64,000 nt of DNA, taken from Squalus acanthias (lineage: Eukaryota). Each line of letters opens with the position of its first letter. Position 1 is the stretch's first letter. The position numbers and the translations under genes are program-made. Below the pieces are notes generated by a model, which saw only the letters and a list, made by a program, of their open reading frames with translations, searched no databases and had not been told where the DNA came from. The DNA lies in contig CM059452.1 in assembly GCA_030390025.1 (NCBI GenBank), positions 7,626,001 through 7,690,000 of the forward strand, read 5' to 3'. This document shows, piece after piece, positions 23,337 to 59,571 of the stretch.

Positions 23337-23375
23337 CACACCGTTACAGGGGCGCAGTCAGTCCGTACAAAAACT
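23337..23375 (+). promoter_or_regulatory. 23-RSS of V-d
   Basis: CACACCG-23 bp-ACAAAAACT. Confidence 0.85.
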
Positions 23376-23983: not shown

Positions 23984-24514
23984 ATGTTAGGTGGGACTTT
24001 TTACTCAGTCCTCACAGCTGCAGCTCTATTAAATGGTAAGTTCACAAGTTACACAAACTTCCTCTTGCAGGTGTCACTAACATAGATAATCTTTTAACTG
24101 TGTTTCTCTATACTTGCCATGCATTCCGTCACCTTTATTATATTAGTTATAATTAAATGACAGTGGGAGCTTTCAGTTCTGTATTTCTAAATTTCTGCAG
24201 GTGTCAGTGGTGCGGACTCGGTCTCACAGGGGCCGGTTACAGCGATGCAGTTTGAAGGAGACTCGGTGACCATCAATTGCAATTATTCGACCACTGCTAC
24301 TTTCTATTTCTTACAACTGTACCGTCAGGACCGGGACAAAGGCCCCACATTCTTGATCTACATCCCTTCTGGTGGGGATGTTTCCAAAGCAGAGGGGGCG
24401 GGGGCTCGATTTTCAGCATCTCTCGACACTTCGAAAAGTGAAGTGAAATTCACCATCGGCGGCCTGCGGCTGTCTGACAGCGCGGTGTATCACTGCGTGC
24501 TGCGGGCTGAGAGA
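23984..24514 (+). CDS. TCR alpha/delta V segment (V-e): leader 23984-24035, V exon 24201-24514; conserved Trp replaced by Leu
   Basis: MLGGTFYSVLTAAALLNG|gtaag..ctgcag|VSGADSVSQ..TINCNY..LQLYRQ..DSAVYHCVLR. Confidence 0.88.
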
Positions 24515-24553
24515 CACAGTGACTGAAACCAGAGGGAGCCTCGTACAAAAACA
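24515..24553 (+). promoter_or_regulatory. 23-RSS of V-e
   Basis: CACAGTG-23 bp-ACAAAAACA. Confidence 0.92.
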
Positions 24554-26033: not shown

Positions 26034-26490
26034 ATGTATTTCAAATTCATTCTTTTGACTACACTCACCTGCTCAGCATTTGGTAAATCTTTAAAGGATG
26101 ATATAGTACAAAGCTACGATAAACAAAGTTTCATAATAAACCCACAATTAACCTCCAATCAATACTTTCAGTCTTTCCATCAGATCTGAGTCAGGGAGAT
26201 TGTGTCTCAGGATTGGTCGGCTGCAGTCCTGAAAATGGGACAGACTTTCAGGACGCTATTTAACAACAACAGGCTGGTACGACCTGTACTAGTACCGAAA
26301 GTATCCCGATACACCCCCGGAGATAATCGTGTGGTGAAGTTACAGCAACAGTTGGGGAAAGGCACAAAATATGGGGAATCGCTTCACTTCTGAATTAAAG
26401 ACATGTTCAGAAGTGCCTATTTTAACCGTCCAGGATCTCCAGCTGAATGACACGGCGCTGTACATCTGTGGATTCGCCCCATCGCTCCGA
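26034..26490 (+). pseudogene. TCR V pseudogene (V-f): leader 26034-26082, V exon from 26184, frameshifts and a W-to-stop change
   Basis: MYFKFILLTTLTCSAF leader; pieces SQDWSAAV, DLY*YRKYPDTPPEII, QLNDTALYICG. Confidence 0.85.
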
Positions 26491-26529
26491 CACAGTGATA
26501 TGACCTAGTTCTCCTCTCGTACAAAAACT
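26491..26529 (+). promoter_or_regulatory. 23-RSS of V-f
   Basis: CACAGTG-23 bp-ACAAAAACT. Confidence 0.92.
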
Positions 26530-26611
26530 GCCTGCGGTCTATTTTGGCGGAGGATGAGTTTCAGTGCGGTCAGATAGAGCTGCAGCACAGAGTGCAATTC
26601 CTGTGGGCTGA

Positions 26612-37257: not shown

Positions 37258-37352
37258 TGACGTGGTAGGTGTGACGTGGATCCAATAGCCACCTCTATCA
37301 GGGAATCAATAGGCGGCGCCAGTAACCTCGCCCCCTTCTACCGGGTATTTAA
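37258..37352 (+). promoter_or_regulatory. IgH V promoter: two TGACGT (CRE-like) motifs, CCAAT, TATTTAA; no octamer seen
   Basis: TGACGT at 37258 and 37272, CCAAT at 37282, TATTTAA at 37346, ATG at 37445. Confidence 0.6.
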
Positions 37353-37444: not shown

Positions 37445-37490
37445 ATGAGGTCGGCGATTTCTCTCAGTCTGTTGCTGGCTTTCTTATCCG
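37445..37490 (+). CDS. IGHV: IgM VH leader exon, cluster 2
   Basis: MRSAISLSLLLAFLSG|gtgagt. Confidence 0.95.
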
Positions 37491-37617
37491 GTGAGTTGTT
37501 TTTATTGTCCAAGTCTCTCACTGTTACTGTCTCAGTGTTAGTCTCTCTCTGGAATGTTACAGAGTCAGGAATCATTTCACCAGGATTAATCCTCGGGGTT
37601 GTTTATTGTTTTTACAG

Positions 37618-37980
37618 GTGTCCAGTCGGATGTCGTGTTGACTCAGCCAGAGGCAGAGACCGGGAGTCCCGGAGGCTCCCTGAGACTGACCTGTAAAACC
37701 AGCGGGGTCAATCTTGGCAGCTATCGCATGCATTGGGTCCGACAGGTTCCCGGACATGGGCTGGAGTGGCTGGTTTACTACCTCAGTTCATCAACCAATA
37801 ACTACGCCCCAGGGATCCAGAGTCGATTTACTGCGTCCAAAGACACTTCAAAGAGCATCTTCGCTTTGGACATGAAGAACCTGAGGACCGAAGACACCGC
37901 CATCTATTACTGTGCAGGAGAGACAACAGTGTATACTATGGAGTACTGGGCACAAGGCACTATGCTGACGGTGACTGCAG
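37618..37980 (+). CDS. IGHV: pre-joined (germline-joined) in-frame VH-D-JH exon
   Basis: [55 protein letters not shown]|gtaag; no intervening RSSs. Confidence 0.95.
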
Positions 37981-40900
37981 GTAAGAAACATTCACTCTTT
38001 CAGCAACTGTTGTATTTGTGTCTTTATTTTATATTTCTGTTTATTTCAGTAATTCATTCATTCACTGAAACTTGGGTTATGTGGATTCCGCAGTAAGATT
38101 TTTTGCTTTGTTTCATTTAATTCTGCTGCAAAGGTATAATAGAATTAAACAGTTTCTCCAGAAATAAAATGTTGTTGAGGGATTGAGCCCCTGATTGATG
38201 TGATTTGGTGTTTATCTGCTGATGAGTCTGTGAGCCTGGGTTACTTTAAATACCCAACGGTTGTTGAACTGTTTGGCGTTTCTACAATGTTTAATCTCGG
38301 TGACATCTAATGGTTGCAGGTTTTCTGATCAAATGTAAACATTATGTGACTAAATGTGTTTGAAATAAGATTGTAGGCAGAAAATAGAAAGCTCTAGCGG
38401 TCAAAAATAATCTTAACTTATATTAATGTATTTCTTTTTGTAATTGTCATCTAATAATCTAATGTTCACCAATGGTCATATTCAATACGTGAAATGTTAC
38501 TGTAATTAATAACTCCATAATTAAAAAATGTGTTGCCTGAATCAGATTTAAATTAATATAAATTAAATTACGTAGTAATATCACCCAATATTACAACAAT
38601 ATTCTATATCAATATTAATTTATTAAATATGAACCGTCTACTTACAATTCTGCTTTCATTATTTTACATTTATGTTTATTTCAATAATTAATTCGTTCAG
38701 TGATAGATGGGATCGCGAGATTCTGTATTGAGATTTTTTTGCAATGTTACATTTGATTCTGCTGAAAGGGTTTATAGAATTAAGCTGCATCGCCACAAAA
38801 CGTTCTGTTACGGGATTCAGCCCCTCAGTGATGTGATTTGCTGTTTATCTGCTGAGGAGAGTGTGTGCCTGGGTTACTTTGAATAAGTAAAGTTTGTGAA
38901 ACTGTTTGGAGTTTCTGCAATGTTTAATCTCCGTGACATGGAACTGCTGCAGGTTTTCAGATCTGTTTAAAACTGTTTGAAAGATGAATGTCGGCAGACA
39001 ACAAGTAGGTTTTATAAATCAAAAATCATTTCAAAATAATTTAATGCATCTTTCTATTTAAGTGAGAATTCCAGATTCAACTATTAATCTATGATTTACG
39101 GTGCTCACCTTTAATAGGTGAATTGTTACTGTAATTCCGAATTATATAATTAACAATTTGCAGGTTGAAGGAGAGTTAAATTAATATAACTCAAACCACT
39201 ATAATGCGGTAATATCGCCCAATTTCACTCAATATGCTATAGTAATAATATTAATGCATTAAATATTATTCGCCTTCCACAATTCTGCTGTGCACTGGTC
39301 ACAATTAACCTGAGCGGAGAATTTTAGAGGCTGGAGACAATTTCTGATTTATGTCTGAAATTATTTTAATAACAGCAGACTGATTCCACCGCAGTGTTCA
39401 GTTTAATGAGGGTTTGAAATTAATTGTTATCTCCCTGTTTCACACAGATGAATGACAGATTGTATTTAATTATGCATTAAATGCGAGTTGTAAATAGCAG
39501 TTCGTAAATGTAATAAATCTGCCGGGTTATTAAATTCTTACTGTGCAGCGGAAACCATTTTATTCCTTCAATATTATTTGTTGTTTGATAGCGAGACAAT
39601 TATCACTAAACTAATCTTAAACAGTTTGTAAGATCTCAGGCTGAGCGGTCGCTGGCAGTCAAATAATTGTTCATATAGTTCCATTTAAAATCAAGGAAGG
39701 TGCCGACTGCGTAAGGCTGGAGACAAAAATTGACATTCAAGTAGATTAATTTAGTTACAAAAGGTTAATATTAGTTTTGAATTTAATAACAACATCCTGT
39801 CTCCTATAACTGTGCTGTATACGGGATAGAATTTTGACAGTGAACAGATTACATCTGAGAGTTATGTTTAATTCTCATTAATGTTAAATTGATCGACAAA
39901 ATCTCTCCTCCATTTGCTCATTAAATTTCAGTGTCGCAGATGGTCTGATTGATCTATTCTCCGCCAGTTTTACATTAATCATTCTGGAACTGATTTTCAA
40001 TAAATTGCAGAATATATTTAAGAATTAAATTACGGGCATTGTGTGAATTACTGGAGTAAAATATAAAAATATTGTCTGTGTTATTAAATAGCGGAGGCTC
40101 TGTTACTGACTGCAAACTGGCCGGTTGTCTTTTAATTCATAAAAATAGTTTTTTATAGCTAAGATTGAGGATAATGTTTAAACTCGAGAGCCCTGCTTTA
40201 GTAAACATACGGTGTTACAGCTCATCGGTAGTTAGTGAGATGTGACCACGGCCAGACTTTGAACTATTTAAAATAGTCCACTCCTAAATGCATCATGTGA
40301 AATCCACTCTGAGAAAAGATGGAGTTTTGTTTTGTATCAGAGAGTTCAGAAACATACAGAGTTTGCAAGTGATTAGATAGAGAGCGGGAATGTATTAGAA
40401 GTTCGTGAGCATTTTCGCTTATTCAAATGTGATTTGAATTAAGTAAAAATAATATATTTGTATGAATGTCTTTATCTATTAACATGATTCTTCTTATTTT
40501 AATATTGATAAATGCCATGTTAATTTAATTGAAGCCATAATAGTTCACAAGTTACCAGGCAGAAACAGGATTAAAATTAATTTTACCTAATTTTATAACA
40601 ATCCAGTATAACATCAGCTAACATCAATATTAAATTAGAGTATAATATCAGTGCGAATTTATTAGACATAAATGACCTCCCACAATTGCGTTGCACACTG
40701 GACAGGATTACGGTTACTGCAAAATCTCAAGGGTTGGAGAGAATTTTAAATTATGTCTAAAATTAATTTAGAAACAATACAAGTCTTACTCAGCTGTGCT
40801 GAGCTCGAGAAGGTGTCGCCGCAGATTTTAATGAATTAACTTCGTCTTTTGCCTCGATCATTTTCCAGGTTATATTTAATGATGAAATTATATTAACCCA

Positions 40901-41436
40901 GTGGGTAATCGGTTTTCAGTGTAAATGTCTCCTGATTTGTTAAATTCTTGCTCTGTCACGGAGTCCCTGTTATATGCAGCAAATTACCCTGGAATGTGAA
41001 TTATTTCAGTAAACTTGTTTTCAGGGAAACAAAATCTTACTCGGTTTGTAAGATTGTAGACAGGGAGGGGGAAATGGTTGGAAGTCGAAGAGAGCTTTTC
41101 AAATTAATACCAGTTTAATTTCAAAAAACGTGCAGACATGAGGTGATAGTTTGAACAGATCTATCTGCCGAGAACACAATTGTTGCACCGCTTGTGTCTG
41201 TTCTGTTTCTGTGCGCCTGCTCACTGTCTGAGAATCAGGAGTCCTCCTGACTGGTTATAAACCTACTGGTTTATTCCCTTATGGAGTACAATTTGACTCA
41301 TTTATTTCAGAAGATTGTATCCGGGAGAAATGCGACAGCTGGACGTTAAGTTTGAGGAGGCGTCTCAGAAATGTGATCAGTAACCCAGTTTCAGACAATC
41401 AGAAGGAGCATTTCAGAAACACTTCTGGCAGACTGC

Positions 41437-41880
41437 AGAGGGAGCTTTAGTCATTTTCTAACCCGTGCCGTACCTTTCCTGGGAGTGTTTGATGGGACAG
41501 TGTAGAGGGATCTCTACTCTGTATCTAACCCGTGCTGTACCTGCCCTGGGAGTGTTTGATGGGACAGTGTAGAGGGAGCTTTACTCTGTATCTAACCCGT
41601 GCCGTACCTTTCCTGGGAGTGTTTGATGGGACAGTGTTGAGGGAGCTCTATTCTGTATCTAACCCGTGCTTTACCTGCCCTGGGAGTGTTTGATGGGACA
41701 GTGTAGAGGGAGCTCCACTCTGTATCTAACCCGTGCTGTACCTGCCCTGGTAGTGTTTTATGGGGCAGTGGGCAGGGAGAATTTACACTCTACTTAACCA
41801 GTGCAGTACTTTACTGGGAGTGTTTGACAGTGCCGTGTAGACTTGGTTTTGCTCGCAATCAATCCCTTGCTATACCTAAC
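41437..41880. repeat. ~65-bp tandem repeat in the J-CH1 intron
   Basis: GAGGGAGCTTTACTCTGTATCTAACCCGTGCTGTACCTGCCCTGGGAGTGTTTGATGGGACAGTGTA units. Confidence 0.9.
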
Positions 41881-43249
41881 CTTAAAGCATGGCAGGTAAG
41901 TGCAGAGGGAGCTTTACTCTATATTACCTATACTGTAACAGACCTGAAAGTGCTTTGTCCCGTGTTGTTCAAGGATTCTTAATCTGCATCCAACTAATAA
42001 AGTGTGAGTTCTCAAGCCGGATATATAAAAACAACCTTTCCATAGCTCCGATGAAACAACCGCGCATTAATTGATTTTAACCTTATTACAAAAAACACTG
42101 CCCAATTATTAATGAATTGATAAACTTTAAACATTTTGAGTATCAGATAATGATTTAATGAGATTGACCTGATCCTGAGCTCACTTTCAGAACAAACAGT
42201 TTCAGGAAGTGACTGTAACGCTCCAGAAAGCAGCGCCTGTTCTGATCTGATGGGAGGCTGGAAATTATTTTGACAATTTAAATGGAGAATGTCGAGACTC
42301 CCGCTCCAAATAACCATCCTGGGAACATTATGTTTGAAAGCATTATTTCATTCAATTGTTTTTAAAAAGGTACCAGGCCGGGACAAACTCGGGTGAGGTG
42401 CAGCTATTGGACTGGGTCACAGCACAAGGCTCACAGTCACTGAGCCGCACCTCTGTGAAACATTTAAAGAGAAACAGTCAGCCTGCGATGAGTCGTCATT
42501 CACAATAAGCTTTAAGACTCTGTGACGGGATCCGATTGAATCATTTTTGAGACAAATTCCACAGTTCCCTTATTTTAAATATCCTCTTGTATTATAAGAA
42601 ACAATAAAATAGATCAGATAGAGGTGTTCAACATTATGAAGCGTTTCCTTCCATTAAATCGGGAAGAATTAATTCCGCTGACCCGTGTAGAATCACAGAA
42701 TCTCAGAGCACAGAAGGGGCCATTCGGCATGTCTTGCCTGTGCTGGCTCTGAAAGAGCTGTCCAATCACGTCCCAGCTTTTTCCTCGTAACCCTGCAAAT
42801 GTGTCCTCTTCAAGAACATGTCCAGTTGCCTCGTGCATTCCGGAACTTAACAACCCTCCTCATTTCCGCTCTAGTTCTTTTGCCAATTATTTTAATCTGT
42901 GACCTTTGGTTACCGACCTGCTCGCCAGAGGAAACCGTGTCTCCCTATTTTCTCTGACAAAACCTCTTACAATTTTGAACACCTCCTGTCGTAAGAATGA
43001 GCCTTACGCGTGGTGAACTTAAAGTAAGCTTTAATCACCTAAAAAGGTGCTACATACAAAAGAGGTCTTACTCTATGCCTCTCCAGGATCCAACTGATCA
43101 GCCCAGTATTTATCCTGGACTAATCACAGGAAGTGATGTAATAAAGTTCAAGTCACAGGAAGCTGTATTGTGTTACCACATTCACCCCCCCACCCCCCAA
43201 AAGATTAGGAGGCCGGGATGAAGTTCGAGTCACAGGAAGCTGTATTGTG

Positions 43250-46200
43250 TTACCACATTCTCCCTCCATTTCGTAGCCGCTGGACGAGGGAGAGCCGCAC
43301 CCGTTTGGGTTCTCGTAGCGGTAGAGGGCCCCTATCCCATTTACCCGCCGCGGGCCGTGGACCAGAGTCCGAGTGATCCAGCCTGCTCTGTGAGGGGTCA
43401 GGACGATCCTGACTGTGTACTGGTGCCCGAACGGGTGTCGGGCAGGGCTGTGGCAGATCCGTTTCCGAGCGTATGGTACGGGGTGGATCGTGGCTGCGCG
43501 TGCGAGCCCCGACGGGCTCATAGTCAGTCTGCCCCAGGTCGGCACGCTGGAGTGAGGTACCAGCTGGCGTCAGATCCAGATCGTGATGAGAGGCACCTGG
43601 CGAGCCCAGAGATGTGCCTGGTACAATATCATCCCCTGGTGTCCCTCTATGTTTCGGCGGGCAGGGAGCCAGATCCCGCAATGACACGGTAGATTCCCGA
43701 CCGTCAGGATACCGAATATAGGCGTAGGTAGGGTTGACGTCAGTGAGCTCAACCTCATCTACCAGGGGGTCATTCTTAGACGCCCGAACATATCTTCGGA
43801 GTAGCACTGGTCCCGGTGCAGTCAGCCACGACGGGAGAGATATCCAATAGGATGAGCGACGCTGAAATCGGAAGAACCGTTCATGAGGCGTCGTATTTGT
43901 GGCGGTCGAAAGGAGGGACCGTGTGGAGTGTAATGCGTCTGGAAGTACTGCTTCCCATTGCTGGTTGGGTAGGCCCCGAGATCTCAAAGCCAGACGTACC
44001 GCATTCCAGATGATAGCGTTAAAACGCTCGACTTGCCCATTCCTGACCGGATGATAAGGCGTCGTTCTGCTGGCAGCAATACCCCGTTCCGAGAGATAGG
44101 CCTTGAGTTCTCCTGACATAAAAGAAGGGCCCCGATCCGAATGAACATAGGATGCCATGCCACAGAAAGCAAATACCTGCTCAAGGCAGCTGATAACCGT
44201 GGTCGTCAGCATATTGGGGCAGGGAAAGGCAAACGGAAAACGGGAATACTCATCGACCATGGTCAATAGATAAGTGTTGCGAGTTGAAGAGGGCAACGGC
44301 CCCTTAAAATCGATGCTAAGCCGTTGCATTGGCTGGGTCGCATGTATGAGTATACCACCCGAGGGGCGGAAAAACTGAGGTTTCAATTCCGCACAGACTC
44401 TGCAGTCCGAGCACATCTTCTTTACATCCCCGGTAGAGAATGGGAGATTTCGGGACCGCACGAAGTGTAGCATGCGAGTAACGCCCGGATGACACAACCC
44501 ATCATGGATGTCTACGAGCGTAGAGGGTGCCATGGCGGAGCAGAATGCTCGTGTGAGGGTATCCGGAGCCACATTCTCCTTGCCAGGTCGATAGTGGATG
44601 GTGTAACCAAAAGAGGCCAATTCCAGCCGCCAAAGCTGGATTTTATTATTTTTAATTTTGGTCCGTTTTCGATTATCGAGCATGAAGGCGACCGATCGCT
44701 GGTCCGTGATTAAGGTAAAGTGCTGGCGAGCTAGGAGATGAGTCCACTTCCGTACTGCCTCTATGATGGCTGTAGCTTCTTTCTCGACTGGAGGATAATG
44801 TAGCTCAGCCCCTTGAAAAGTCCTGGACAAAAATGCCACCGGACGACCTTCCTGATTCAGAGTGGCCGAGATCGCCACCTCCGAGGCATCACACTCAACA
44901 ACAAAAGGAAGACTCTCATCGATGGAGTGAAGAGCCGCTTTCTCCAACTGTTTTTTCAGGAGGTTAAAGGCTGCAACAGCCGCTGTGTCTAGTGGGAATG
45001 TGCTGGCCTTCAGTAGAGGTTGGATTCGGTCCGAGAAGTTAGGAATCCATTTAGCATAGTATGCAAACAGGCCGAGGGCCCGGCGCAAGGAGGCCGGATT
45101 CTTAGGTGGCGGGAGTTCTTGGAGTGGGCGAAGCCTTTCAGGGTCAGGTTTAATGATGCCATTGCCCACGCAATAGCCAAGGATGTTGATGGTTGGTTGT
45201 GACTCAATGGATTTAGCCGCATTTAATGTCAAATTACGGTGCTGGAGTGCATCCCAAAATCGTTGGAGATTGGCGTCATGTTCCCGCTGATTGCGACCTG
45301 CGACAGTAATATTGTCCAGATAAGGAAACGTATCCTTTAAGTCTTCCTGTTTGACCAGGTCATCCATTGCTCGCTGGAAGACAGCCACTCCATTAGTGAC
45401 CCCAAAGGGGAGGCGACGAAATTGATACAGCCGTCCATTGGCTTCAAAGGCCGTATACTGCTTGTCTGAGACCTTCAAGGGTACCTGATGATAGGCACTT
45501 TTCAGATCATATGTTGAGAACACCGTGTACTCAGCCAGTTTATTAACCATATCATCGATGCGCGGCAATGGGTATGCGTCCAAGTCCGTTTATTGATTGA
45601 TGGTCTGTGAATAGTCAATGCACAGCCGTTTCTTGTGAGGTTGTAGAGGGTTCTTAACAATAACGACCTGGGCGCGCCATGGCAACGAACAAGGCTCGAT
45701 GATATCCTCTGCTAAAAGCCGAGAAATCTCAGCCGCAATAAAAGACTGGTCTTCCTGACTGAAACGTCGTGACTTTGTTATAATCGGTTTGCATCGAGGA
45801 GGGATACTGGTAAACAGTGAGGGTTCATCCAGTGAAGCTGCTGACAATGCACAGAACGGTAATCGAGGTCGTATATTAGAAATAGTGAGTTCAGGTTTGG
45901 ATCCGCCGAACTCAATGGTGAGCTTCTTATGCTGCTTTTGAAAATCTAGCCCTAAGATAAGATCACTACATAAGTCCGTGAGCACCGAAAGCCGGGTGGA
46001 GGGATACCTGTGACCATTAAGTGTTATTTCAACCATACAAAAGCCAGAAATTCTGGTATTAAGTGATGACTGAGCCATCGCAATTGCCTGGTCCGATGGG
46101 AAAACATGTAGCTTTAACTCTGCAACAATCTGTTCCCTAATGAAACTATCAGTGCTACCTGAGTCAATTAAGGCATCTAAAGTATGTCCATTAATTGATG

Positions 46201-47192
46201 CTTTTGTAGCTGCATGGAATAGGTTCTGAGGACAAGCAGCTGTAATTGGTGTCGTTGCACAAAGAGTGGCTGAAACTCTAGGTGTGTTTCTTCGAGAGAA
46301 AACCCGAGAGGAAGCACGATAGATTTTAGCCGGAACATCTTGATAGGCCCTTACCGGGGCAGTTCGGTAGGACTTAGCTTGATAAGCCCTCGTAGAGGCT
46401 CTTGATAGGCAAACCTTTGCAAAATGACCCTTTTTGTTGCAATGACTGCAAAACGCATTGCGAGCAGGGCAGAATTTCCGAGGGTGAAACTCATCACCAC
46501 ACAAGAAGCATTTCTTAGATTGCCAAGAGGCTGCCACAGTGGGGTTATCATCCTCTTCATCAGTGAAGTCATCAGATTGATCGTCAGGGATAAAGTCCTC
46601 CCTAATAGAGTTCACCTGTGGCCTCTTAAATTGCCTGACTGTAGTTAAGGCAGCAGACCGAGGTCTGGGCACTGTATAAAGGTCTGCATTTCTTTTTGCC
46701 AGATCTAGAGAGCAAGCCATGTCATAAGCTCTCTGAAGCTCAACTTTCCAGTAGACGCTGGCGTATAAATGGGGAGGCAAGCCCGCAGATGAAAGCATCA
46801 CGGATCATTTCTTCACGGTACAGCTCAGCTGAGGCCGCCTGAAAGTTACAGTCCATACTAAGTCTGCGAAGCTCTTGGAGGAATTTATCAATGGATTCCT
46901 CCGGCCCTTGTTGGGCTGTAGCTAGTAGATGTCTGGCATAGACCTCATTCGGTGTCTTAGTATATAGTCTTTTAAGCGTCCGAATTGCCTCCTCGTAACT
47001 GCCCCATTCCTCGACATACTGAAATACATTCGGGGTGACACAGTTGATGAGTATCCGCAATTTTGAGTCATCATCAGCCTTGCAATATTCGAGAAAATTG
47101 TCAAACGTGCGATACCAGTGTTTCCACACCTTACCGGCTGCTGGGGTGTTTGGGTCCAAGTCATTACGCGATGGTTTAAGGATGTTTTCCAT
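43250..47192 (-). pseudogene. gag-pol copy 1 (two CCHC knuckles, protease LIDSGS, RT YLDN, RNase H, integrase); frameshift at ~46741, TAA at 45590-45592
   Basis: ORFs 46740..47192, 45590..46801, 43250..45583. Confidence 0.93.
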
Positions 47193-47533
47193 GATGGGTG
47201 ATTCCCTGGATCCTTAGTTCCGAGTTCGTCCAAAAAGTTTGAGTGCGAAGTTTTTCAAAGTTGATTAAATTGTCGTAAGAATGAGCCTTACGCGTGGTGA
47301 ACTTAAAGTAAGCTTTAATCAACTAAAAAGGTGCTACATACAAAAGAGGTCTTACTCTATGCCTCTCCAGGATCCAACTGATCAGCCCAGTATTTATCCT
47401 GGACTAATCACAGGAAGTGATGTAATAAAGTTCAAGTCACAGGAAGCTGTATTGTGTTACCACATTCACCCCCCCACCCCCCAAAAGATTAGGAGGCCGG
47501 GATGAAGTTCGAGTCACAGGAAGCTGTATTGTG

Positions 47534-50500
47534 TTACCACATTCTCCCTCCATTTCGTAGCCGCTGGACGAGGGAGAGCCGCACCCGTTTGGGTTCTCGT
47601 AGCGGTAGAGGGCCCCTAGCCCGTTTACCCGCCGCGGGCCGTGGACCAGAGTCCGAGTGATCCAGCCTGCTCTGTGAGGGGTCAGGACGATCCTGACTGT
47701 GTACTGGTGCCCGAACGGGTGTCGGGCAGGGCTGTGGCAGATCCGTTTCCGAGCGTATGGTACGGGGTGGATCGTGGCTGCGCGTGCGAGCCCCGACGGG
47801 CTCATAGTCAGTCTGCCCCAGGTCGGCACGCTGGAGTGAGGTACCAGCTGGCGTCAGATCCAGATCGTGATGAGAGGCACCTGGCGAGCCCAGAGATGTG
47901 CCTGGTACAATATCATCCCCTGGTGTCCCTCTATGTTTCGGCGGGCAGGGAGCCAGATCCCGCAATGACACGGTAGATTCCCGACCGTCAGGATACCGAA
48001 TATAGGCGTAGGTAGGGTTGACGTCAGTGAGCTCAACCTCATCTACCAGGGGGTCATTCTTAGACGCCCGAACATATCTTCGGAGTAGCACTGGTCCCGG
48101 TGCAGTCAGCCACGACGGGAGAGATATCCAATAGGATGAGCGACGCTGAAATCGGAAGAACCGTTCATGAGGCGTCGTATTTGTGGCGGTCGAAAGGAGG
48201 GACCGTGTGGAGTGTAATGCGTCTGGAAGTACTGCTTCCCATTGCTGGTTGGGTAGGCCCCGAGATCTCAAAGCCAGACGTACCGCATTCCAGATGATAG
48301 CGTTAAAACGCTCGACTTGCCCATTCCTGACCGGATGATAAGGCGTCGTTCTGCTGGCAGCAATACCCCGTTCCGAGAGATAGGCCTTGAGTTCTCCTGA
48401 CATAAAAGAAGGGCCCCGATCCGAATGAACATAGGATGCCATGCCACAGAAAGCAAATACCTGCTCAAGGCAGCTGATAACCGTGGTCGTCAGCATATTG
48501 GGGCAGGGAAAGGCAAACGGAAAACGGGAATACTCATCGACCATGGTCAATAGATAAGTGTTGCGAGTTGAAGAGGGCAACGGCCCCTTAAAATCGATGC
48601 TAAGCCGTTGCATTGGCTGGGTCGCATGTATGAGTATACCACCCGAGGGGCGGAAAAACTGAGGTTTCAATTCCGCACAGACTCTGCAGTCCGAGCACAT
48701 CTTCTTTACATCCCCGGTAGAGAATGGGAGATTTCGGGACCGCACGAAGTGTAGCATGCGAGTAACGCCCGGATGACACAACCCATCATGGATGTCTACG
48801 AGCGTAGAGGGTGCCATGGCGGAGCAGAATGCTCGTGTGAGGGTATCCGGAGCCACATTCTCCTTGCCAGGTCGATAGTGGATGGTGTAACCAAAAGAGG
48901 CCAATTCCAGCCGCCAAAGCTGGATTTTATTATTTTTAATTTTGGTCCGTTTTCGATTATCGAGCATGAAGGCGACCGATCGCTGGTCCGTGATTAAGGT
49001 AAAGTGCTGGCGAGCTAGGAGATGAGTCCACTTCCGTACTGCCTCTATGATGGCTGTAGCTTCTTTCTCGACTGGAGGATAATGTAGCTCAGCCCCTTGA
49101 AAAGTCCTGGACAAAAATGCCACCGGACGACCTTCCTGATTCAGAGTGGCCGAGATCGCCACCTCCGAGGCATCACACTCAACAACAAAAGGAAGACTCT
49201 CATCGATGGAGTGAAGAGCCGCTTTCTCCAACTGTTTTTTCAGGAGGTTAAAGGCTGCAACAGCCGCTGTGTCTAGTGGGAATGTGCTGGCCTTCAGTAG
49301 AGGTTGGATTCGGTCCGAGAAGTTAGGAATCCATTTAGCATAGTATGCAAACAGTCCGAGGGCCCGGCGCAAGGAGGCCGGATTCTTAGGTGGCGGGAGT
49401 TCTTGGAGTGGGCGAAGCCTTTCAGGGTCAGGTTTAATGATGCCATTGCCCACGCAATAGCCAAGGATGTTGATGGTTGGTTGTGACTCAATGGATTTAG
49501 CCGCATTTAATGTCAAATTACGGTGCTGGAGTGCATCCCAAAATCGTTGGAGATTGGCGTCATGTTCCCGCTGATTGCGACCTGCGACAGTAATATTGTC
49601 CAGATAAGGAAACGTATCCTTTAAGTCTTCCTGTTTGACCAGGTCATCCATTGCTCGCTGGAAGACAGCCACTCCATTAGTGACCCCAAAGGGGAGGCGA
49701 CGAAATTGATACAGCCGTCCATTGGCTTCAAAGGCCGTATACTGCTTGTCTGAGACCTTCAAGGGTACCTGATGATAGGCACTTTTCAGATCATATGTTG
49801 AGAACACCGTGTACTCAGCCAGTTTATTAACCATATCATCGATGCGCGGCAATGGGTATGCGTCCAAGTCCGTTTATTGATTGATGGTCTGTGAATAGTC
49901 AATGCACAGCCGTTTCTTGTGAGGTTGTAGAGGGTTCTTAACAATAACGACCTGGGCGCGCCATGGCAACGAACAAGGCTCGATGATATCCTCTGCTAAA
50001 AGCCGAGAAATCTCAGCCGCAATAAAAGACTGGTCTTCCTGACTGAAACGTCGTGACTTTGTTATAATCGGTTTGCATCGAGGAGGGATACTGGTAAACA
50101 GTGAGGGTTCATCCAGTGAAGCTGCTGACAATGCACAGAACGGTAATCGAGGTCGTATATTAGAAATAGTGAGTTCAGGTTTGGATCCGCCGAACTCAAT
50201 GGTGAGCTTCTTATGCTGCTTTTGAAAATCTAGCCCTAAGATAAGATCACTACATAAGTCCGTGAGCACCGAAAGCCGGGTGGAGGGATACCTGTGACCA
50301 TTAAGTGTTATTTCAACCATACAAAAGCCAGAAATTCTGGTATTAAGTGATGACTGAGCCATCGCAATTGCCTGGTCCGATGGGAAAACATGTAGCTTTA
50401 ACTCTGCAACAATCTGTTCCCTAATGAAACTATCAGTGCTACCTGAGTCAATTAAGGCATCTAAAGTATGTCCATTAATTGATGCTTTTGTAGCTGCATG

Positions 50501-51476
50501 GAATAGGTTCTGAGGACAAGCAGCTGTAATTGGTGTCGTTGCACAAAGAGTGGCTGAAACTCTAGGTGTGTTTCTTCGAGAGAAAACCCGAGAGGAAGCA
50601 CGATAGATTTTAGCCGGAACATCTTGATAGGCCCTTACCGGGGCAGTTCGGTAGGACTTAGCTTGATAAGCCCTCGTAGAGGCTCTTGATAGGCAAACCT
50701 TTGCAAAATGACCCTTTTTGTTGCAATGACTGCAAAACGCATTGCGAGCAGGGCAGAATTTCCGAGGGTGAAACTCATCACCACACAAGAAGCATTTCTT
50801 AGATTGCCAAGAGGCTGCCACAGTGGGGTTATCATCCTCTTCATCAGTGAAGTCATCAGATTGATCGTCAGGGATAAAGTCCTCCCTAATAGAGTTCACC
50901 TGTGGCCTCTTAAATTGCCTGACTGTAGTTAAGGCAGCAGACCGAGGTCTGGGCACTGTATAAAGGTCTGCATTTCTTTTTGCCAGATCTAGAGAGCAAG
51001 CCATGTCATAAGCTCTCTGAAGCTCAACTTTCCAGTAGACGCTGGCGTATAAATGGGGAGGCAAGCCCGCAGATGAAAGCATCACGGATCATTTCTTCAC
51101 GGTACAGCTCAGCTGAGGCCGCCTGAAAGTTACAGTCCATACTAAGTCTGCGAAGCTCTTGGAGGAATTTATCAATGGATTCCTCCGGCCCTTGTTGGGC
51201 TGTAGCTAGTAGATGTCTGGCATAGACCTCATTCGGTGTCTTAGTATATAGTCTTTTAAGCGTCCGAATTGCCTCCTCGTAACTGCCCCATTCCTCGACA
51301 TACTGAAATACATTCGGGGTGACACAGTTGATGAGTATCCGCAATTTTGAGTCATCATCAGCCTTGCAATATTCGAGAAAATTGTCAAACGTGCGATACC
51401 AGTGTTTCCACACCTTACCGGCTGCTGGGGTGTTTGGGTCCAAGTCATTACGCGATGGTTTAAGGATGTTTTCCAT
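47534..51476 (-). pseudogene. gag-pol copy 2 with the same two lesions
   Basis: ORFs 51024..51476, 49874..51085, 47534..49867. Confidence 0.93.
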
Positions 51477-54387
51477 GATGGGTGATTCCCTGGATCCTTA
51501 GTTCCGAGTTCGTCCAAAAAGTTTGAGTGCAAAGTTTTTCAAAGTTGATTAAATTGTCGTAAGAATGAGCCTTACGCGTGGTGAACTTAAAGTAAGCTTT
51601 AATCAACTAAAAAGGTGCTACATACAAAAGAGGTCTTACTCTATGCCTCTCCAGGATCCAACTGATCAGCCCAGTATTTATCCTGGACTAATCACAGGAA
51701 GTGATGTAATAAAGTTCAAGTCACAGGAAGCTGTATTGTGTTACCACACCTCCATTAGGTCTCCCCTTAACTTTCACTGCTCCAAGGAACAATCCCAGTT
51801 TCTCCAATCTCTCCGCATAACTGAAGTCTCTCATCCCTGGTCTCATCCTGGTCAACCTCCTCTGTACCCTCTTCAAGGCCTTGTCATTCTCCCTAAGTTT
51901 TGGTGGTCAGAATTGTATACCCTACTTCATCTGATGCCTAACCAGTGATTTGTAAAGTTTTAGCATGACTTCCTTGTTTTTTGTATTCAATACCCCCTTT
52001 ACAATGGCCAGTATCCCAACACACTTCTGTAACCGCCTGATCATCTTGCCCTGCCACCTTCAAAGATTTGTGACTATGCACCCCAAGGTCCCTCTGCTCT
52101 TGCACCACCCTCTGGATTATACTGTCTCTCCCTGTTATTCCTCCAAAAGTGAATCACTTCACACTTATCTGCATTAAATTGCATCAGCCACATGTCTGCC
52201 CATTTCACCAGTCTGTCTATGTCCTCCTGAAGTCCGCTGCTATCCTGCTCACTAGTTACTACGTTGCCAAGTTTGCATCTTCCGCACACTTGAAAACTGT
52301 ACTCCCTATAAACAAGTCCAGGTAATTTATATATAAAAGAGGAAAAGCAATTGTCCTAATACCGACCCTCGGGGGACCCCACTGCATACTTCTCTTCAGT
52401 CAGGCAAACATCCGTTCACCACTACTCTCTGCCTCCTCTCCCTCTGCCAATTACATACCCAAGTTACCTCCATCCCTTTAATCACATGTGCTTCTATTTT
52501 CAGAATAAGTCTTTCATGAGATACTTTATAAAATGCCATTTGAAAGTCTATATGTACAACATCTACTGCAACACCATCATCAACCCTCTCTGTTACTTCA
52601 CACTGTAGACCGAGCTTTCAGTATCTGACCAATAAGCCGCAGGTGTTTGTGTTATCCGCACAAACCAGAAGCCAGAGTTGCCCACATCAGCAGTCAGCAC
52701 ATTAGTTACATTTGTCCTTCCTTGCATAGAACCCGCTGATAACCAATCCATTTATAATGTTTAAGGATTGCCAATATTAGATATTTGGAAAAGAAATCTC
52801 TCCCGATGTTTAGATTATGTTCGGTACAAACAGCAACAAGAAGTGACTGTAATGACCCAGGAAGCAGCGCCTGTTCTCACTGGTGGGAGGTTGGAAAGTA
52901 ATTTAGAAAATGAAATGGAGCATTTAAAGAGCATCGTTGCATATAACCGGCTTTGGGAATCGTATATAATTCGGATAATTTAATTGAGTGAGTGGGAGGA
53001 GGAAAGTCAGGAGACATCCATTCAGTAGAATGGGACAGAGGACAAGTCACACTGCATCGCTCCCACTCCAATTCTGAGAAGGAAAGAGAGAGACTAGAAT
53101 CAATCCCGATTCATCTAAATCTTGAATCTTAGAAACCAGGCTGTGCAAAAGTTCCCTATTCAAATCTGTGCGCTAAATTATTCCGCTCACATTTTAAAGG
53201 AGACTTCAACCATTTATTGTAAACGTCCTTTATTGTCATGGGAACAATGAAGATTTAGATGAGGTCTGATAGAGGGGTTTGGAATTATGAAGGGTTTTAT
53301 GAAGGGATTCGGGAAACATATTTCCCGGGTCGGTGAGTTGGTGAGTAAATGGCACTGATTGAAAATCAGCAGCAACAGAATAAAGGGAGAGGTTTTATTC
53401 TACTTTTCTACACAGGGGGCTGTTAATCATAGGATGTCCTATCAGAAAGAGGGCTGCATGTAAAATCCACAATAGCTCGATAAAATTGAACATTTGAGAA
53501 GAAGATTGGAAATTGGAAGGTACACGGGATTGGTGGAGAGACCTTTCAGAGGTGTGATCGGCCGAATAGCCTCCTTCTGTGCTGTAACGTTGTATTATTT
53601 TATAATTCTGGGTCATGCTTTATAAACATGCTGGGATTTGTTTTAAAGGTAACAGAACTAGTAGATCTAGCTGTAGGAGTTGTGTGCTTAGGAGAACTAA
53701 CCCCACCGCTATTCAAACAAGTCTATCCCCTGAAATCAACAACTTGCATTTAATTAGCGCCTTTAACGTAGTAAAACGTCCCAAGACGATTCACAGGAGC
53801 GTCAGCATATAGAATCTGACACCGAGCCACATAAGCAGATATCATTTTATTTCTTTAGTATGGTTGGTAGTTATACTGACAGTTGACCAAAAGTTTGGTG
53901 AAAGAGGTAAGTTTTAAGGCAGCATCTTACAATGGAGAGAACACGACACTTTGATATCATGGAATGGCCTGATTCTGTGCTGATAATAAGAGGCTGACAG
54001 CAAAAGGATGTAGGGAGGAGCTCAGTGGACAGAATGTGAAAGAATCTAATGTGAAAGTGGTTGGGGAATGAGGGGAGTGTTCCACAACAGGGGATCAAGA
54101 GCTGGAGGAAGTCCACGAAACAATATTCCGGCATTCACTCGGTATAAAGGGGCCTCATGGACAGAATGCTCCTTTCAGACTCCTGACTTTTCTTATGTAC
54201 AAGACTGGAGTCACATGAAGGCGTTTCACGTCGGGTCTCACAACTCACAGAAACTCAAATGCTGATGTAGATTTGGATCGACAAATGATGGAATTAGTTC
54301 ATCCTGTAGTCACATTTCAAGTTGTTTGGTTATGTTATAAGCACGGATTACAGAGTCTAACTTGTTCAATTGGCCATTCTTTCCCAG

Positions 54388-54687
54388 CGACACAGTCTCC
54401 TCCCACCCTCTACGCCCTGCTCTCCTCCTGTGAACAACCCAACACCGGCGGCCCCGTCACCTACGGCTGTTTGGCGATGGACTACTTCCCGGAAATCACC
54501 AGCCTTTCCTGGAGTAAAGATAAAGAGCCGATCACCACTGGATTGAAGACCTACCCGTCAGTGTTCAACAAGCAGGGAACCTACACCCTGAGCAGCCAGT
54601 TAACCATCACCGAGTCAGAGGTGGGGAGCAGCGCCATCTACTGCCAGGTTCGACGAAGTGGGTCAGACTGGAGCGTCAAAATGCGAG
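54388..54687 (+). CDS. IGHM: IgM CH1 exon, cluster 2
   Basis: ttcccag|[35 protein letters not shown]..; G|gttag; L-chain-linking Cys present. Confidence 0.95.
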
Positions 54688-54767
54688 GTTAGTGTTGTGG
54701 GATACAGGGGGGAAACTGTGAAAAGCAGAGAAGTTATGTTCAACTTCTATACAACTTTGGTTAGACC

Positions 54768-55262
54768 AGACTTAGAGCACTGTGTACAGGTCTGGTCTCC
54801 ATATCACACTTAGAGTACTGTGTACAGGTCTGGTCTCCATATCACACTTAGAGTGCTGTGTACAGGTCTGTTCTCCATATCACACTTAGAGTACTGTGCA
54901 CAGGTCTGATCTCCATATCACACCTAGAGCACTGTGCACAGGTCTGGTCTCCATATCACACTTAGAGTACTGTGCACAGGTCTGATCTCCATATCACACC
55001 TAGAGCACTGTGTACAGGTCTGATCTCCATATCACACCTAGAGCACTGTGTACAGGTCTGGTCTCCATATCACACTTAGAGCACTGTGTACAGGTCTGGT
55101 CTCCATATCACACTTAGAGTACTGTGTACAGGTCTGGTCTCCATATCACACTTAGAGCACTGTGCACAGGTCTGGTCTCCATATCACACTTAGAGTACTG
55201 TGTACAGGTCTGGTCTCCATATCACACTTAGTGTACTGTCCATTGTTCTGGTTTCCATATTA
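54768..55262. repeat. 38-bp minisatellite inside a + strand CR1 fragment (~54710-55770)
   Basis: CACTTAGAGTACTGTGTACAGGTCTGGTCTCCATATCA x ~12. Confidence 0.9.
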
Positions 55263-55836
55263 TAAGAATGATACAGAGGCACTGGAGAAGTGCAAAACTG
55301 ATTGACAAGGACGAACACAGAACTGAAAAATTGTAACTGTCAAGAATGATTGAACCGGCTTGGGATCTTTTCTCTAGAAAATAGAAGGCTGAGGGGTGAC
55401 CTAATAGTGGTATTTAAAATTATGAAGGAGTTGAAAGGTTAGACGTAGAGAAAGTATTTCTGCTTGAGGAGGAGCCCGATACTGGGGGCCATAAATATAA
55501 GATAATCACTAATATATCCAATAGGGAATTCAGGGGAATCTTCTTTACCCAGAGAGTGGGTAGAATATGGAACCCGCCACCACATGGAGTAGTTGAGGCG
55601 AATAGAATAGATGCGTTTCAGGGGAATCTAGATAAGTACAGGAGGGAGAAAGGAATAGAAGGTTATGTTGATGGGGAGATGAAGTAGGGAGAGAGGAGGC
55701 TCATGTGGAGCATAAACACCGACCTGTTGGGCCGAGTGGCCTGTTTCTGTGTTGTAGATTCTATGTAAAAAACGCTTTACAGTTCTTATTGTTTGGATTA
55801 CAACAAATAATCCCAATAAAATGTATTTTCTTGCAG

Positions 55837-56148
55837 ATCTTATGGTACATCATCCAACTGTGATCCTCACCCTGAGTTCCAGTGAAGAAATCATCAGCAG
55901 CAGGTCTGCAACCGCCGTGTGTTCAATCATCGATTTCCGTCCAAAGGCAATGACCGTGAATTGGCTGAAGAATGGACAGCTCATGGATTCGGACATCGTC
56001 ACCTCTCCCGTCTTTGAAGTGAACGGGAACTTCTCGGCGACCAGTCGGCTGACATTCACCGCCGGGGAATGGTTCGCCGACTCGGTCTATACCTGCCAGG
56101 TCTCTCATCAAGGGGACACCCAAAGCCGAAACATCACCAGATCTCCGG
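55837..56148 (+). CDS. IGHM: IgM CH2 exon, cluster 2
   Basis: ttgcag|..[30 protein letters not shown]; G|gtaag. Confidence 0.95.
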
Positions 56149-56204
56149 GTAAGAGACACAATCCCGAGAAGTCCCAGATCATTCTGAGCGCCGCACTCAG
56201 TCAG

Positions 56205-56812
56205 GAGTCATAGAGTCATATCGGTACAGAAGGAGGCCATTCGGCCCATCGAGTCCGTGCCGGCTCTCTGTAGAGCAATCCAGTCAGTCCCATTCCCCAG
56301 CTCTATCCCCGTAGCCCTGCAGGTTTATTTCCCTCAAGTGCCTATCCAGGCTCCCCTTGAAAACATTGAGTGTCTCCGCTTCCACCACTTCCGTCCGCAT
56401 TCCAGGTCATCACCACTCGCTGCGTAAAAAAGCTTTTCCACACAACCCTCCTGTATCTCTTGCCCAAAACCTTAAATCTGTGACCCTAGTTCTTATACCA
56501 TCAACTAGTGAGAACAGCCTTTCCCCGTCTAGCCTATCCAAACCCGTCATAATCTTGTACACTTCTTTTAAATCACCCTTCAACCTCCTTTGCTGTAATG
56601 AAAACAAATCCAGCTTCTCCAACCTGTCCTTGTAGCTAAGATCCCCCATCCCCGGAACCATCCTGGTAAATCTTCTCTGCACACTCTCAAGGGCCTTCAC
56701 ATCCTTCCTAAAATGTGGTGACTGGAACTGGACACAATGCTCCAGTTGTGGCCTAACCAGTGCTTTATAAAGGTTCAGCATAACTTCTCTACTTTTGTAA
56801 TCAATACCTCTA
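56205..56812 (-). mobile_element. CR1 LINE 3' fragment
   Basis: ORF 56410..56781 RPQLEHCVQF. Confidence 0.87.
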
Positions 56813-57094
56813 TTGTTTTATTGAACTTTTATTGGAATTAGAAAAAAGCACAGATCTATTTCTAATTTCCAATCATACAGTTTGTGTCTCCTTCCGATGT
56901 CAGTGCTGACTCAGGGTTCCTCACGGTTCAGGATTCCAGCACTTCGCCAAAGGTTTCCCTCAGCTGTGATGTCAGTCAGTGAGTGAGGTGTCCTTAGTCT
57001 CAGATTTATCCTGACTTGGCTGATCATATTCGGAGCGACAGTAGGTGTCTGGAACCCTTTACTGGTAACTGTCTCGGGACGCACTGCTAGAAAG

Positions 57095-57650
57095 GACATC
57101 TACCCTATTTAGAGAACTGCGTTCAATTCTGGGCACCGCCCATCAGGATGGATATAGTGGCTTTAGAGGGTGCAACGCAAATTCACCCGAATCATACCGG
57201 GACTGAAAGGGTTAAATTATGAGGAGAGGTTGCACAGAATAGTCTTGCATTCCTTTGAGTATAGAAGATTAAGAGGTGATCTAATTGAGGTGTTTAAGTT
57301 GATAAATGGAATTGATAGGGGAGATAGAGAGAAACTATTTCCTCTGGTGCGGGAGTCCAGAACAAGGGGCATAACCTTAAAATTAGAACCGAGCCGTTCA
57401 GGGGTGATGTCAGGAAGCACTTCTTCACACAAAGGACAGTGGAAATCTGGAACTCTCTCCCCGCCAAAAGCTGTTGAGGCTGGGGGTCAATTGAAAATTT
57501 CAAAACTGAGATTGATAGATGTTTGTGAGGCAAAGGTATCAAGGGTTACAGAAACAAGGCGGGTAGATGGTGTTGAGGTGTAGATCAGCCGTGATCTCAT
57601 TGAATGGCGGAACAGGCTGGATGGGCTGAATGGCCTACTCCTGTTCCTCT
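57095..57650 (+). mobile_element. CR1 LINE 3' fragment (paralog of 1-90 plus ~1195-1507)
   Basis: ORF 57170..57583 QRKFTRIIPGLKGLNYEERL. Confidence 0.87.
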
Positions 57651-58353
57651 GTTGCTATTACTGCCCTGCGGTCATATTTCCTTCTGACTCTCTCACCAGA
57701 CATGTTAAGTGCTCACTAATGACAGAAATGAACAAATTACTTCACATCGGCATTACACATTATTCACCACCACAAAAGACCCCTTGGAACTCCATTCTCC
57801 CGACCTTTCACTTCTCCTCTGACGGGGCTGCAACTGGTTCCTGCACATTTTCATCGCCCCCAAAATCGCAACAAGACATCAGAAAATTAACTTTGTTTCC
57901 AGTTGCACCTAAAATCCTGGATTTCATTTGACACTCGTTTTGAACCAGTGTAATTTTCGTGTAGAGCTCTTGACCCTGGGGGCGGAGCCATTATAATGAG
58001 CGGGAATGCGTTCGGGCACAAGGATCTATAGACGGGCGTAAAGGAGCAAGGGATTTCGGGAAGAGCGCTACTCAGTGCGTAACACAATTGCGCCCAGATT
58101 TATTCATTTTTTACGCCGGGTATTTGCTTCACAGCCCATTACAGGAGGCTCTGGGAGCAAATACACCGGAAATGTTAAAGAGTCTCCCGGAATCGTTGTC
58201 AATTCGTTGTCCTTCCAATAACGATGGTGTTTAAGCAACAGCGAGAGGTTGATATCTCAAAGGTGATTTATTCTCCCTGAGAGAGTGAAGGCTGAATACT
58301 GGTGTCCTGATTCTGAAGATGGAGCTTTGCTTGACTTTCATTTCTGTTCACAG

Positions 58354-58662
58354 ATGGTTCCTCATGCAACGATCCAGAAATCACTCTTCCGCAACCGTCA
58401 CTAGAACAGGTCTTACTGGAGGCGACGGTGACCTTAACCTGCGTCGTGTCTAATGCTCCTTATGGAGTCAACGTGTCCTGGACCCGAGAAAAGGAGACTT
58501 TGAAATCAGAGATTGCCGTCCAACCCGGAGAGGCTCCCAACAGCGTGATCAGCAACTTAAACATCTCGACACAAGCCTGGCTGAGTGGGGATGAGTTCTA
58601 CTGCGTGGTGAGCCATCAGGATATGCCGACTCCTATAAGAGATTCCATCCACAAGGAAAAAG
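58354..58662 (+). CDS. IGHM: IgM CH3 exon, cluster 2 (intact)
   Basis: cacag|[41 protein letters not shown]..; G|gtgag. Confidence 0.95.
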
Positions 58663-59179
58663 GTGAGCGGTGAGATTGTAGCAATAAGTGAGACTCTGTG
58701 ACTATTTCCGGTGCTTGTGCACGGCCCAATTCATTCTATTCAGTGTTTTAATGCACTGCTCTGATAATTCAATTGGTAATTCCACTAACTAAACCCTCTG
58801 GGACCCGAGATGGTGCATTTCAGGGGAAGCTGGATAAGTACATGAGGGGAAAAGGAATAGAAGGATATGTTATTAGTGTTAGATGAAGTAAGGTGGGAGG
58901 AGTCTCGTGTGGAGCATAAACAGCGGCATTGACCAGTTGGGCCGAATGGTCTGTTTCTGTGATGTAAATTCTATATAATTTTCCAGTCCAACTCTTCAAG
59001 CTCCCAGAGAGAAGGATTGTATCCCCCTCTGCTCCGGGCTGGAAAACCGGACAGGACACAGAGGGGAAAAGGGAATCCTTTAAATTCAGCGCAAAGCACA
59101 TTTCTCTCACATCTAACCGCCGGTTTCATTGTCTCTGGAATTCTCCAGTTTATTGACCTTTATTGTAATTGTTCTGCAG

Positions 59180-59571
59180 CTAAACATCCGCGGGAACCGT
59201 CCGTGTCTGTCCTCCTGCCCCCGGCAGAAGAAGTCTCCGCTCAGAGGTTCGTCACCCTCACCTGCTTAGTGAGAGGTTTCTCCCCCCGAGAGATCTTCGT
59301 CAAGTGGACCGTCAATGACAAGCCGGTGAATTCCGGCAACTACAAGAACACCGAGGTGATGGCGGAGAACGGCAGCAGTTCCTTCTTCATGTACAGCCTG
59401 TTATCCATTGCAGCGGAGGAGTGGGCCAGCGGCGCTTCTTACTCCTGTGTGGTGGGACATGAAGCGCTCCCCTTGAAGATCATCAACAGAACGGTTAATA
59501 AATCCAGCGGTAAACCCAGTTTTGTCAACATTTCCCTTGTTCTGATGGACACCGTCAATTCTTGTCAATGA
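59180..59571 (+). CDS. IGHM: IgM CH4 plus secretory tailpiece, cluster 2
   Basis: [35 protein letters not shown]; twin AATAAA downstream. Confidence 0.96.

What the first reader, a model, noticed from the sequence alone, without database searches (positions are those of the whole stretch)
37445..59571. Germline-joined, in-frame VDJ on an intact four-domain C-mu: a fixed-specificity IgM
Seen: leader intron retained; V, CDR3 ([13 protein letters not shown]) and J fused with no RSS; CH1-CH4 and tail all open with valid splice sites; J motif is WAQG rather than WGxG. Known: germline-joined IgH clusters occur in sharks, and nurse shark IgM1gj lacks CH2; this gene keeps it. The CDR3 core ACAACAGTG resembles, from memory, the shark D1 core ACTACAGTG, which would fit RAG joining in the germ line. 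The retained intron argues against retroposition. Inference: an expressible invariant IgM embedded among TCR V genes.
Basis: partly seen in the sequence, partly recalled or inferred. Interest (0 to 1): 0.75.

Follow-up and report, generated by a model that had tools for sequence, protein, structure and literature searches.

The report
Pre-joined shark IgM heavy-chain gene
A shark antibody (IgM) heavy-chain gene has its normally separate V, D and J pieces already fused in frame on an unbroken constant region, most likely as an inherited copy, which is a kind of gene already described in several sharks and skates.

Summary
The anatomy is real. Six exons (leader, fused VDJ, CH1-CH4 with secretory tail) splice GT-AG in phase into a 573-codon open frame, with no recombination signal at the junction. 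An RNA-type run of a relative uses the leader-V and J-CH1 splice sites. The junction core reads like the D1-type motifs in stored shark IgM CDR3s, so a RAG-type V-D-J join is likely. Inheritance is likely but not shown, and expression is untested. Only the heavy chain is fixed; the light chain and hypermutation can still vary. Germline-joined VDJ-IgM clusters are in print for horn shark and skate, and a 2025 table lists a catshark 'IgM (gj)' and white-shark IgM clusters among TCR alpha/delta V genes. Verdict: new member of a known kind, low interest.

The parts
37258..37352 (+). Promoter-like region: two CRE-type hexamers (37258, 37272), a CCAAT box (37282), a TATA-like box (37346); no octamer
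   Evidence: Motif scan; function inferred
37445..37490 (+). Leader exon
   Evidence: an RNA-type run of a relative splices 37490 to 37618
37618..37980 (+). Fused V-D-J exon, open, no RSS
   Evidence: paralogue contigs match V up to 37921 and J from 37944
37922..37943 (+). Junction: about 1 unassigned base, a 9-base D1-like core (37923-37931), then bases assignable to a D2 remnant or the 5' end of J
   Evidence: frames against stored CDR3s; nucleotide assignment inferred, germline D and J of this species not seen
37981..54387 (+). J-CH1 intron, 16.4 kb (7.6 kb without the insertion)
42987..51748 (-). Gypsy-type LTR retrotransposon as LTR-internal-LTR-internal-LTR, antisense to the gene, 5-bp target-site duplication; the two units differ at 5 of 4284 bases; the pol frame has a stop in both units
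   Evidence: protease, RT, RNase H, integrase order by Pfam
54388..54687 (+). C-mu1 exon; extra N-terminal Cys (position 14) present
   Evidence: 95 of 98 residues equal to P0001
55837..56148 (+). C-mu2 exon; most diverged domain, Phe at position 59 where most relatives have Cys
   Evidence: 86 of 101 residues equal to P0001
58354..58662 (+). C-mu3 exon
   Evidence: 102 of 102 residues equal to P0001
59180..59571 (+). C-mu4 plus secretory tail with penultimate Cys; AATAAA at 59600 and 59610
   Evidence: 126 of 129 residues equal to P0001
35481..35737 (.). Assembly gap of 257 N between the gene and the upstream V segments
13911..26530 (.). Context: six non-IgH V segments; five on + with 23/24-bp-spacer RSS (four open, one with stops) and one on - with a heptamer but no nonamer found
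   Evidence: TCR alpha/delta type has modest support
2170..10830 (+). Context: end of a second C-mu (CH3 frameshifted with a stop, CH4, membrane exon near 10.7 kb)

Best explanation
This is a shark IgM heavy-chain minicluster whose V, D and J are fused in frame on an intact four-domain C-mu, likely joined by RAG-type recombination in a germ cell and inherited, so it would give a secreted mu chain with a preset V domain without any somatic rearrangement. Shown: fusion, loss of all RSS, open frame, splice sites, secretory tail. Inferred: RAG cut at the V, D1, D2 and J signals with trimming and few added bases; the event was germline (about 0.87 taken alone); the gene is transcribed from its own V promoter, most likely early in life as reported for other joined shark Ig genes (about 0.55 given germline origin plus an intact frame). 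The antibody's specificity would still depend on the light chain and on hypermutation.
For: Anatomy. Splice use by paralogues: run X8 has zero depth over the leader intron and 3 contigs running from 37980 into 30 bases equal to the start of CH1. D1 origin: in the gene's own frame the core gives the same three residues as nurse shark P0027 and two of three in P0005 and P0006; a second frame shares two residues with the D-like motif of P0001; a VDJ-like join in run X11 shares five consecutive bases with the core. Germline origin: differences from every laid contig also occur upstream of the TATA-like box (37285, 37321), outside the transcribed part; one X1 contig (depth 19.6) matches V 37703-37852 with 5 differences in 150 and lacks the common letter at 37757 and 37783, where all X2 contigs carry it; a DNA-type run of a relative (X11, kind guessed) holds another in-frame join; nurse shark blood has 1 leukocyte per 250 red cells and rearranged bands were not seen in blood or heart DNA (PMC2435157, passages). 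Constraint: of 9 replacement differences between the two C-mu copies in CH3 (outside codons 4-17) and CH4, 7 fall on the broken upstream copy and 2 on this gene, taking P0001 as reference; 48 of 2000 neutral simulations stay open at 2% divergence (assumed indel rate).
Against: The gene starts 1.7 kb from a contig end, where support may be thin, and the source tissue is unknown. J carries changes seen in 0 of 18 stored heavy chains (Ala for the first Gly, Leu for Val; 12 of the 18 are one nurse shark cluster) and differs at 4 of 16 residues from the J-like end of P0001: this fits relaxed selection or hypermutation. CH2 has Phe where 18 of 20 stored chains have Cys. A very young 8.8-kb antisense retrotransposon with an AATAAA on the sense strand of each LTR sits in the J-C intron. 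Expression of joined horn shark H genes was not detected (PMC2193156, passages). The neighbouring C-mu is broken. P0001 may simply be closer to this copy, which would bias the 7-to-2 count, and the time since joining is unknown, which weakens the simulation.
Confidence: 0.5

Rival explanations
1. Germline-joined but silent or decaying: the join is inherited, the frame has not yet been hit, and the gene makes little or no protein.
For: Unusual J residues (0 of 18 stored chains), CH2 Cys loss, a young retrotransposon in the J-C intron, a broken neighbour, and undetected expression of joined horn shark H genes (PMC2193156 passages).
Against: Frame, ten splice sites, promoter-like motifs, poly(A) signals and tail Cys are all intact; CH3 is identical to P0001 while the neighbour drifted; the CH2 Phe also occurs in P0003 and in the full-length secretory chain P0016.
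Confidence: 0.38
2. A somatic rearrangement from one B-cell or thymocyte clone, perhaps hypermutated, was assembled at a thinly covered contig end.
For: Contig start only 1.7 kb upstream; replacement changes in J; CDR3 of 11 codons equals the somatic average of 11.3-11.6 (PMC2435157 passage).
Against: Rearranged DNA is rare outside lymphoid tissue; differences also lie upstream of the TATA-like box; a low-depth X1 contig shares the V's uncommon bases; J-intron pieces of X2 match with 0 of 147 and 1 of 110 differences, which heavy hypermutation would be expected to disturb (the second piece lies in a duplicated stretch).
Confidence: 0.08
3. An ordinary deletion, not RAG, fused V to J, and the core is a worn remnant of the V or J heptamer.
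For: Six bases of the core equal the last six of the heptamer consensus.
Against: The bases after the core do not follow the V spacer seen in paralogue contigs; the heptamer reading needs extra indels; the core's frames match D-like motifs in stored CDR3s.
Confidence: 0.04

Closest known systems
Germline-joined VDJ IgM clusters of horn shark and skates (PMC2193156 passages and section 21; PMC5192425, PMC4279169, PMC2435157 passages)
   Same: VDJ fused in genomic DNA without RSS, in a mu minicluster, alongside unrearranged paralogues.
   Different: A different species and CDR3; expression unknown here; carries a young Gypsy-type insertion. I did not see the original horn shark or skate sequences.
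Catshark 'IgM (gj)' LOC119952352 and white shark IgM clusters in the antigen receptor complex (PMC12227049, section 6 and table S1 part 1 of 2)
   Same: A joined IgM listed on the TCR alpha/delta-bearing chromosome; IgM clusters interleaved with TCR alpha/delta V genes.
   Different: The table gives a label only; I could not compare sequence or domain count, and the catshark entry lies about 1 Mb from the nearest listed TCR V.
Nurse shark IgM1gj (PMC5192425, PMC4279169 passages)
   Same: Completely joined V on a mu-type constant region with a secretory tail.
   Different: IgM1gj lacks CH2, is abundant in neonates and pairs with a joined sigma-2 light chain; this gene keeps CH2, and expression and partner are unknown.
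Conventional shark IgM, e.g. unnamed P0001 and horn shark P0002
   Same: C-mu domains: 97/85/100/98% to P0001 and 79/71/80/86% to P0002.
   Different: Conventional clusters keep V, D1, D2 and J apart with RSS and rearrange in each B cell.

Membership tests
Elasmobranch IgM (mu) heavy chain | Four C1-set domains homologous to shark C-mu | tested here: met
   4 of 4 C exons hit C1-set; named hits are shark mu chains
Elasmobranch IgM (mu) heavy chain | Secretory tail with penultimate Cys | tested here: met
   last residues equal to P0001
Elasmobranch IgM (mu) heavy chain | Membrane exons downstream of CH4 | not testable with these tools
   In the upstream copy they lie 7.3 kb past the stop; only 4.4 kb of window remain; no genome held
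Germline-joined VDJ cluster | V, D and J fused with no RSS left | tested here: met
Germline-joined VDJ cluster | Introns retained (not a retrocopy) | tested here: met
   Five GT-AG introns
Germline-joined VDJ cluster | Junction contains germline D sequence | tested here: inconclusive
   Protein-level match to D-like motifs in stored CDR3s; this species' D segments not seen
Germline-joined VDJ cluster | Present in non-lymphoid or germ-cell DNA | tested here: inconclusive
   only indirect support from relatives' contigs
IgM1gj subclass | CH2 absent | tested here: not met
   CH2 exon 55837-56148 is present and open
IgM1gj subclass | High neonatal expression with a joined sigma-2 light chain | not testable with these tools
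   No neonatal RNA for this gene was available
Antigen receptor complex (IgH linked to TCR alpha/delta) | TCR alpha/delta-type V segments between IgH clusters | tested here: inconclusive
   Six V segments lie between two C-mu genes but across an N gap; one has TCR alpha chains among its solved-structure hits alongside antibody V domains, another gave antibody hits only, and a protein search gave no named shark TCR

The most novel reading that the evidence does not exclude
A selected, expressed, germline-joined four-domain IgM heavy chain, independent of IgM1gj, whose orthologue is kept in related sharks and whose CH2 has been remodelled (Cys loss): an innate-like antibody that would let one test whether joined heavy-chain genes in species with mixed clusters are used early in life.
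Probability: 0.2. Interest if true: 0.5.

Novelty: new member of a known kind. Interest (0 to 1): 0.2.

Why it matters
It adds one well-defined, intact example to a known class. Its use is practical: a unique junction allows a direct test, by PCR on non-lymphoid DNA and by a transcript search, of two old questions raised in PMC2193156, namely whether RAG still acts in shark germ cells and whether joined heavy-chain genes with a normal constant region are expressed. It does not change the picture of shark antibody genes.

Tried and rejected
No whole genome is held, so the number of joined clusters and the membrane exons could not be checked. Sequencing runs: 22 listed, 20 hold part of 37400-38150, the best holds 0.52 of 71 words; no RNA holder listed. 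Four of the 22 were laid: no listed piece bridges 37922-37943, but only 32 of 1374 pieces, 24 of 94 loose ends and 40 of 193 difference rows were shown and contigs drop rare variants, so this says nothing about absence. No database search with the V domain itself was made, so an identical V or CDR3 in public proteins is not excluded; C-exon searches gave 12 hits among 52 candidates and 2 among 208, none with this CDR3. A metagenome scan with P0001 found 75 pattern matches and 0 relatives. The junction figure of PMC2435157 is an old .doc and could not be read; it may show nurse shark D1 and D2. A search for rapid C-mu2 evolution returned nothing to cite; I recall such a report for nurse shark but did not see it. 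Earlier findings of this scan held nothing on this gene. Rejected: retroposition (introns kept); IgM1gj membership (CH2 kept); V replacement by upstream TCR-like V segments (a cryptic heptamer at 37907-37913 has no nonamer by eye, and the relaxed scan did not list it); a second J in the duplicated J-intron segment. No structure was predicted.
Full report
Observation. The gene is as described. Six exons on the + strand (37445-37490, 37618-37980, 54388-54687, 55837-56148, 58354-58662, 59180-59571) have GT-AG, phase-1 boundaries and give 573 residues without an internal stop. All four constant exons score as C1-set domains and their named relatives are shark mu chains. The whole-window RSS scan found 7 sites, none after 26.9 kb, and a relaxed scan from the contig start to the retrotransposon found 0. 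The window holds only one IgH-type V and one J.

Splicing and the limits of the join. Four of 22 listed runs were laid on 37250-38300. Run X8 behaves as RNA: no depth over the leader intron, a joint from 37490 to 37618, and three contigs that go from 37980 into 30 bases equal to the start of CH1. These are paralogous transcripts, not this gene. Contigs of unrearranged clusters match up to 37921 and then run into a heptamer and spacer; unrearranged J contigs carry a heptamer, 11 coding bases, and match from 37944. So 22 bases make up the junction.

Origin of the junction. In the gene's frame the core gives the same three residues as a motif in the CDR3 of nurse shark P0027 and two of three in P0005 and P0006; a second frame shares two residues with the corresponding motif in P0001. 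A different in-frame V-to-J join in run X11 shares five bases with the core. The residues before the J Trp line up with the J-like end of P0001. This fits V + about one added base + D1 + a short D2 remnant or nothing + trimmed J, with few untemplated bases, as described for germline light-chain joints (PMC2193156, passages). The assignment is inferred, because I never saw this species' D segments. A worn heptamer is a poorer fit.

Germline or somatic. Not settled directly. In favour of inheritance: rearranged IgH was not detected in nurse shark blood or heart DNA (PMC2435157, passages); the window differs from every laid contig also upstream of the TATA-like box (37285, 37321); a depth-19.6 contig of run X1 matches the V over CDR1 to FR3 with 5 differences in 150 and lacks the common letter at two sites where all X2 contigs have it; at 37965 in J, 25.6 of 391.9 depth in X1 lacks the common letter; X2 has J-intron pieces with 0 of 147 and 1 of 110 differences. 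These readings come from 40 of 193 difference rows and 32 of 1374 pieces, and species differences could explain some of them. Against: the contig begins at 35738, 1.7 kb before the start codon, and the tissue is unknown. I put germline origin at about 0.87.

Is it functional? For: intact frame, splice sites, promoter-like motifs, poly(A) signals and tail Cys. The upstream C-mu copy differs by 57 of 895 and 23 of 517 bases in introns but 7 of 308 and 5 of 392 in CH3 and CH4, is frameshifted with a stop in CH3, and carries 7 of the 9 replacement changes when P0001 is the reference (codons 4-17 of CH3 left out). Neutral simulations stayed open in 271, 48, 8 and 0 of 2000 runs at 1, 2, 3 and 5% divergence, with an assumed indel rate; the age of the join is unknown. 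Against: both J framework changes are seen in 0 of the 18 stored chains that have a J (of 28 stored proteins; 12 are one nurse shark cluster); CH2 is the most diverged domain (86 of 101 to P0001) and has Phe where 18 of 20 chains have Cys, although P0003 and P0016 have Phe too; an 8.8-kb antisense Gypsy-type element, doubled and 99.9% self-identical, with a 5-bp target-site duplication, sits in the J-C intron. Without it the intron is 7.6 kb, near the 6.3-6.8 kb given for nurse shark. Expression was not tested. The membrane exons lie outside the window.

Context. Six non-IgH V segments lie at 13.9-26.5 kb, between the upstream C-mu and this gene. They are across a 257-N gap, so the linkage rests on scaffolding, and the downstream side shows only tandem repeat. 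Their TCR alpha/delta identity has modest support.

What is known. Reviews state that many shark clusters are partly or fully joined in the germline and that nurse shark is unusual in lacking canonical joined IgM (PMC5192425, PMC4279169; passages). PMC2193156 (passages and section 21) describes mixed joined and split horn shark H clusters, undetected expression of the joined ones, and early expression of joined light chains. PMC12227049 (section 6 and table S1 part 1 of 2) reports TCR alpha/delta V exons between IgH clusters and lists a catshark 'IgM (gj)'. PMC8692893 (passages) added nothing on joined IgM.

Verdict. The gene works like, and most likely is, a germline-joined VDJ-IgM cluster of the horn shark and skate type; it is not IgM1gj. 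'Fixed specificity' holds at most for the heavy-chain V. New member of a known kind; interest 0.2. The boldest reading left open, a selected and expressed innate-like four-domain IgM, has probability about 0.2 and would deserve 0.5.

Noticed in passing
window 42987-51748 (-): Very young Gypsy-type LTR retrotransposon as a tandem of two units sharing a middle LTR; 5 differences in 4284 bases, LTRs 194 bp differing at 0-1 sites, 5-bp target-site duplication, same stop in pol in both units. Unequal crossover between LTRs or an assembly duplication.
   Followed up: partly
window 2170-3388 and about 10660-10790: End of a second C-mu: CH3 has a one-base loss and a one-base gain with a stop between them; CH4, tail and first membrane exon are open. 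Likely a pseudogene or a sequence error.
   Followed up: partly
window 13911-26530: Six TCR-like V segments in both orientations; the one ending at 26490 has stops, the one at 18637 has a 24-bp RSS spacer, the minus-strand one has a heptamer but no nonamer found.
   Followed up: partly
run X11, loose end behind window 37920: One contig of a DNA-type run of a relative holds a different in-frame V-to-J join with no RSS; possibly another germline-joined cluster.
   Followed up: no
window 38021-39289: Old tandem duplication (about 635-bp unit, 71-83% alike) at the start of the J-C intron; no second J in it.
   Followed up: partly
window 3810-8924 and 60000-64000: The same 52-53-bp minisatellite follows the secretory exon of both C-mu genes, so it was duplicated with the cluster.
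   Followed up: no
window 55837-56148: CH2 is far more diverged (85% to P0001) than CH1, CH3 and CH4 (97-100%); a Cys-to-Phe change at position 59 also occurs in catshark-type P0003 and P0016.
   Followed up: partly
window 17926-18242 and 18976-19301: Inverted duplicate, 87.5% alike, around the V segment at 18.3-18.6 kb.
   Followed up: no
window 35481-35737: Assembly gap of 257 N, 1.7 kb upstream of the start codon.
   Followed up: partly
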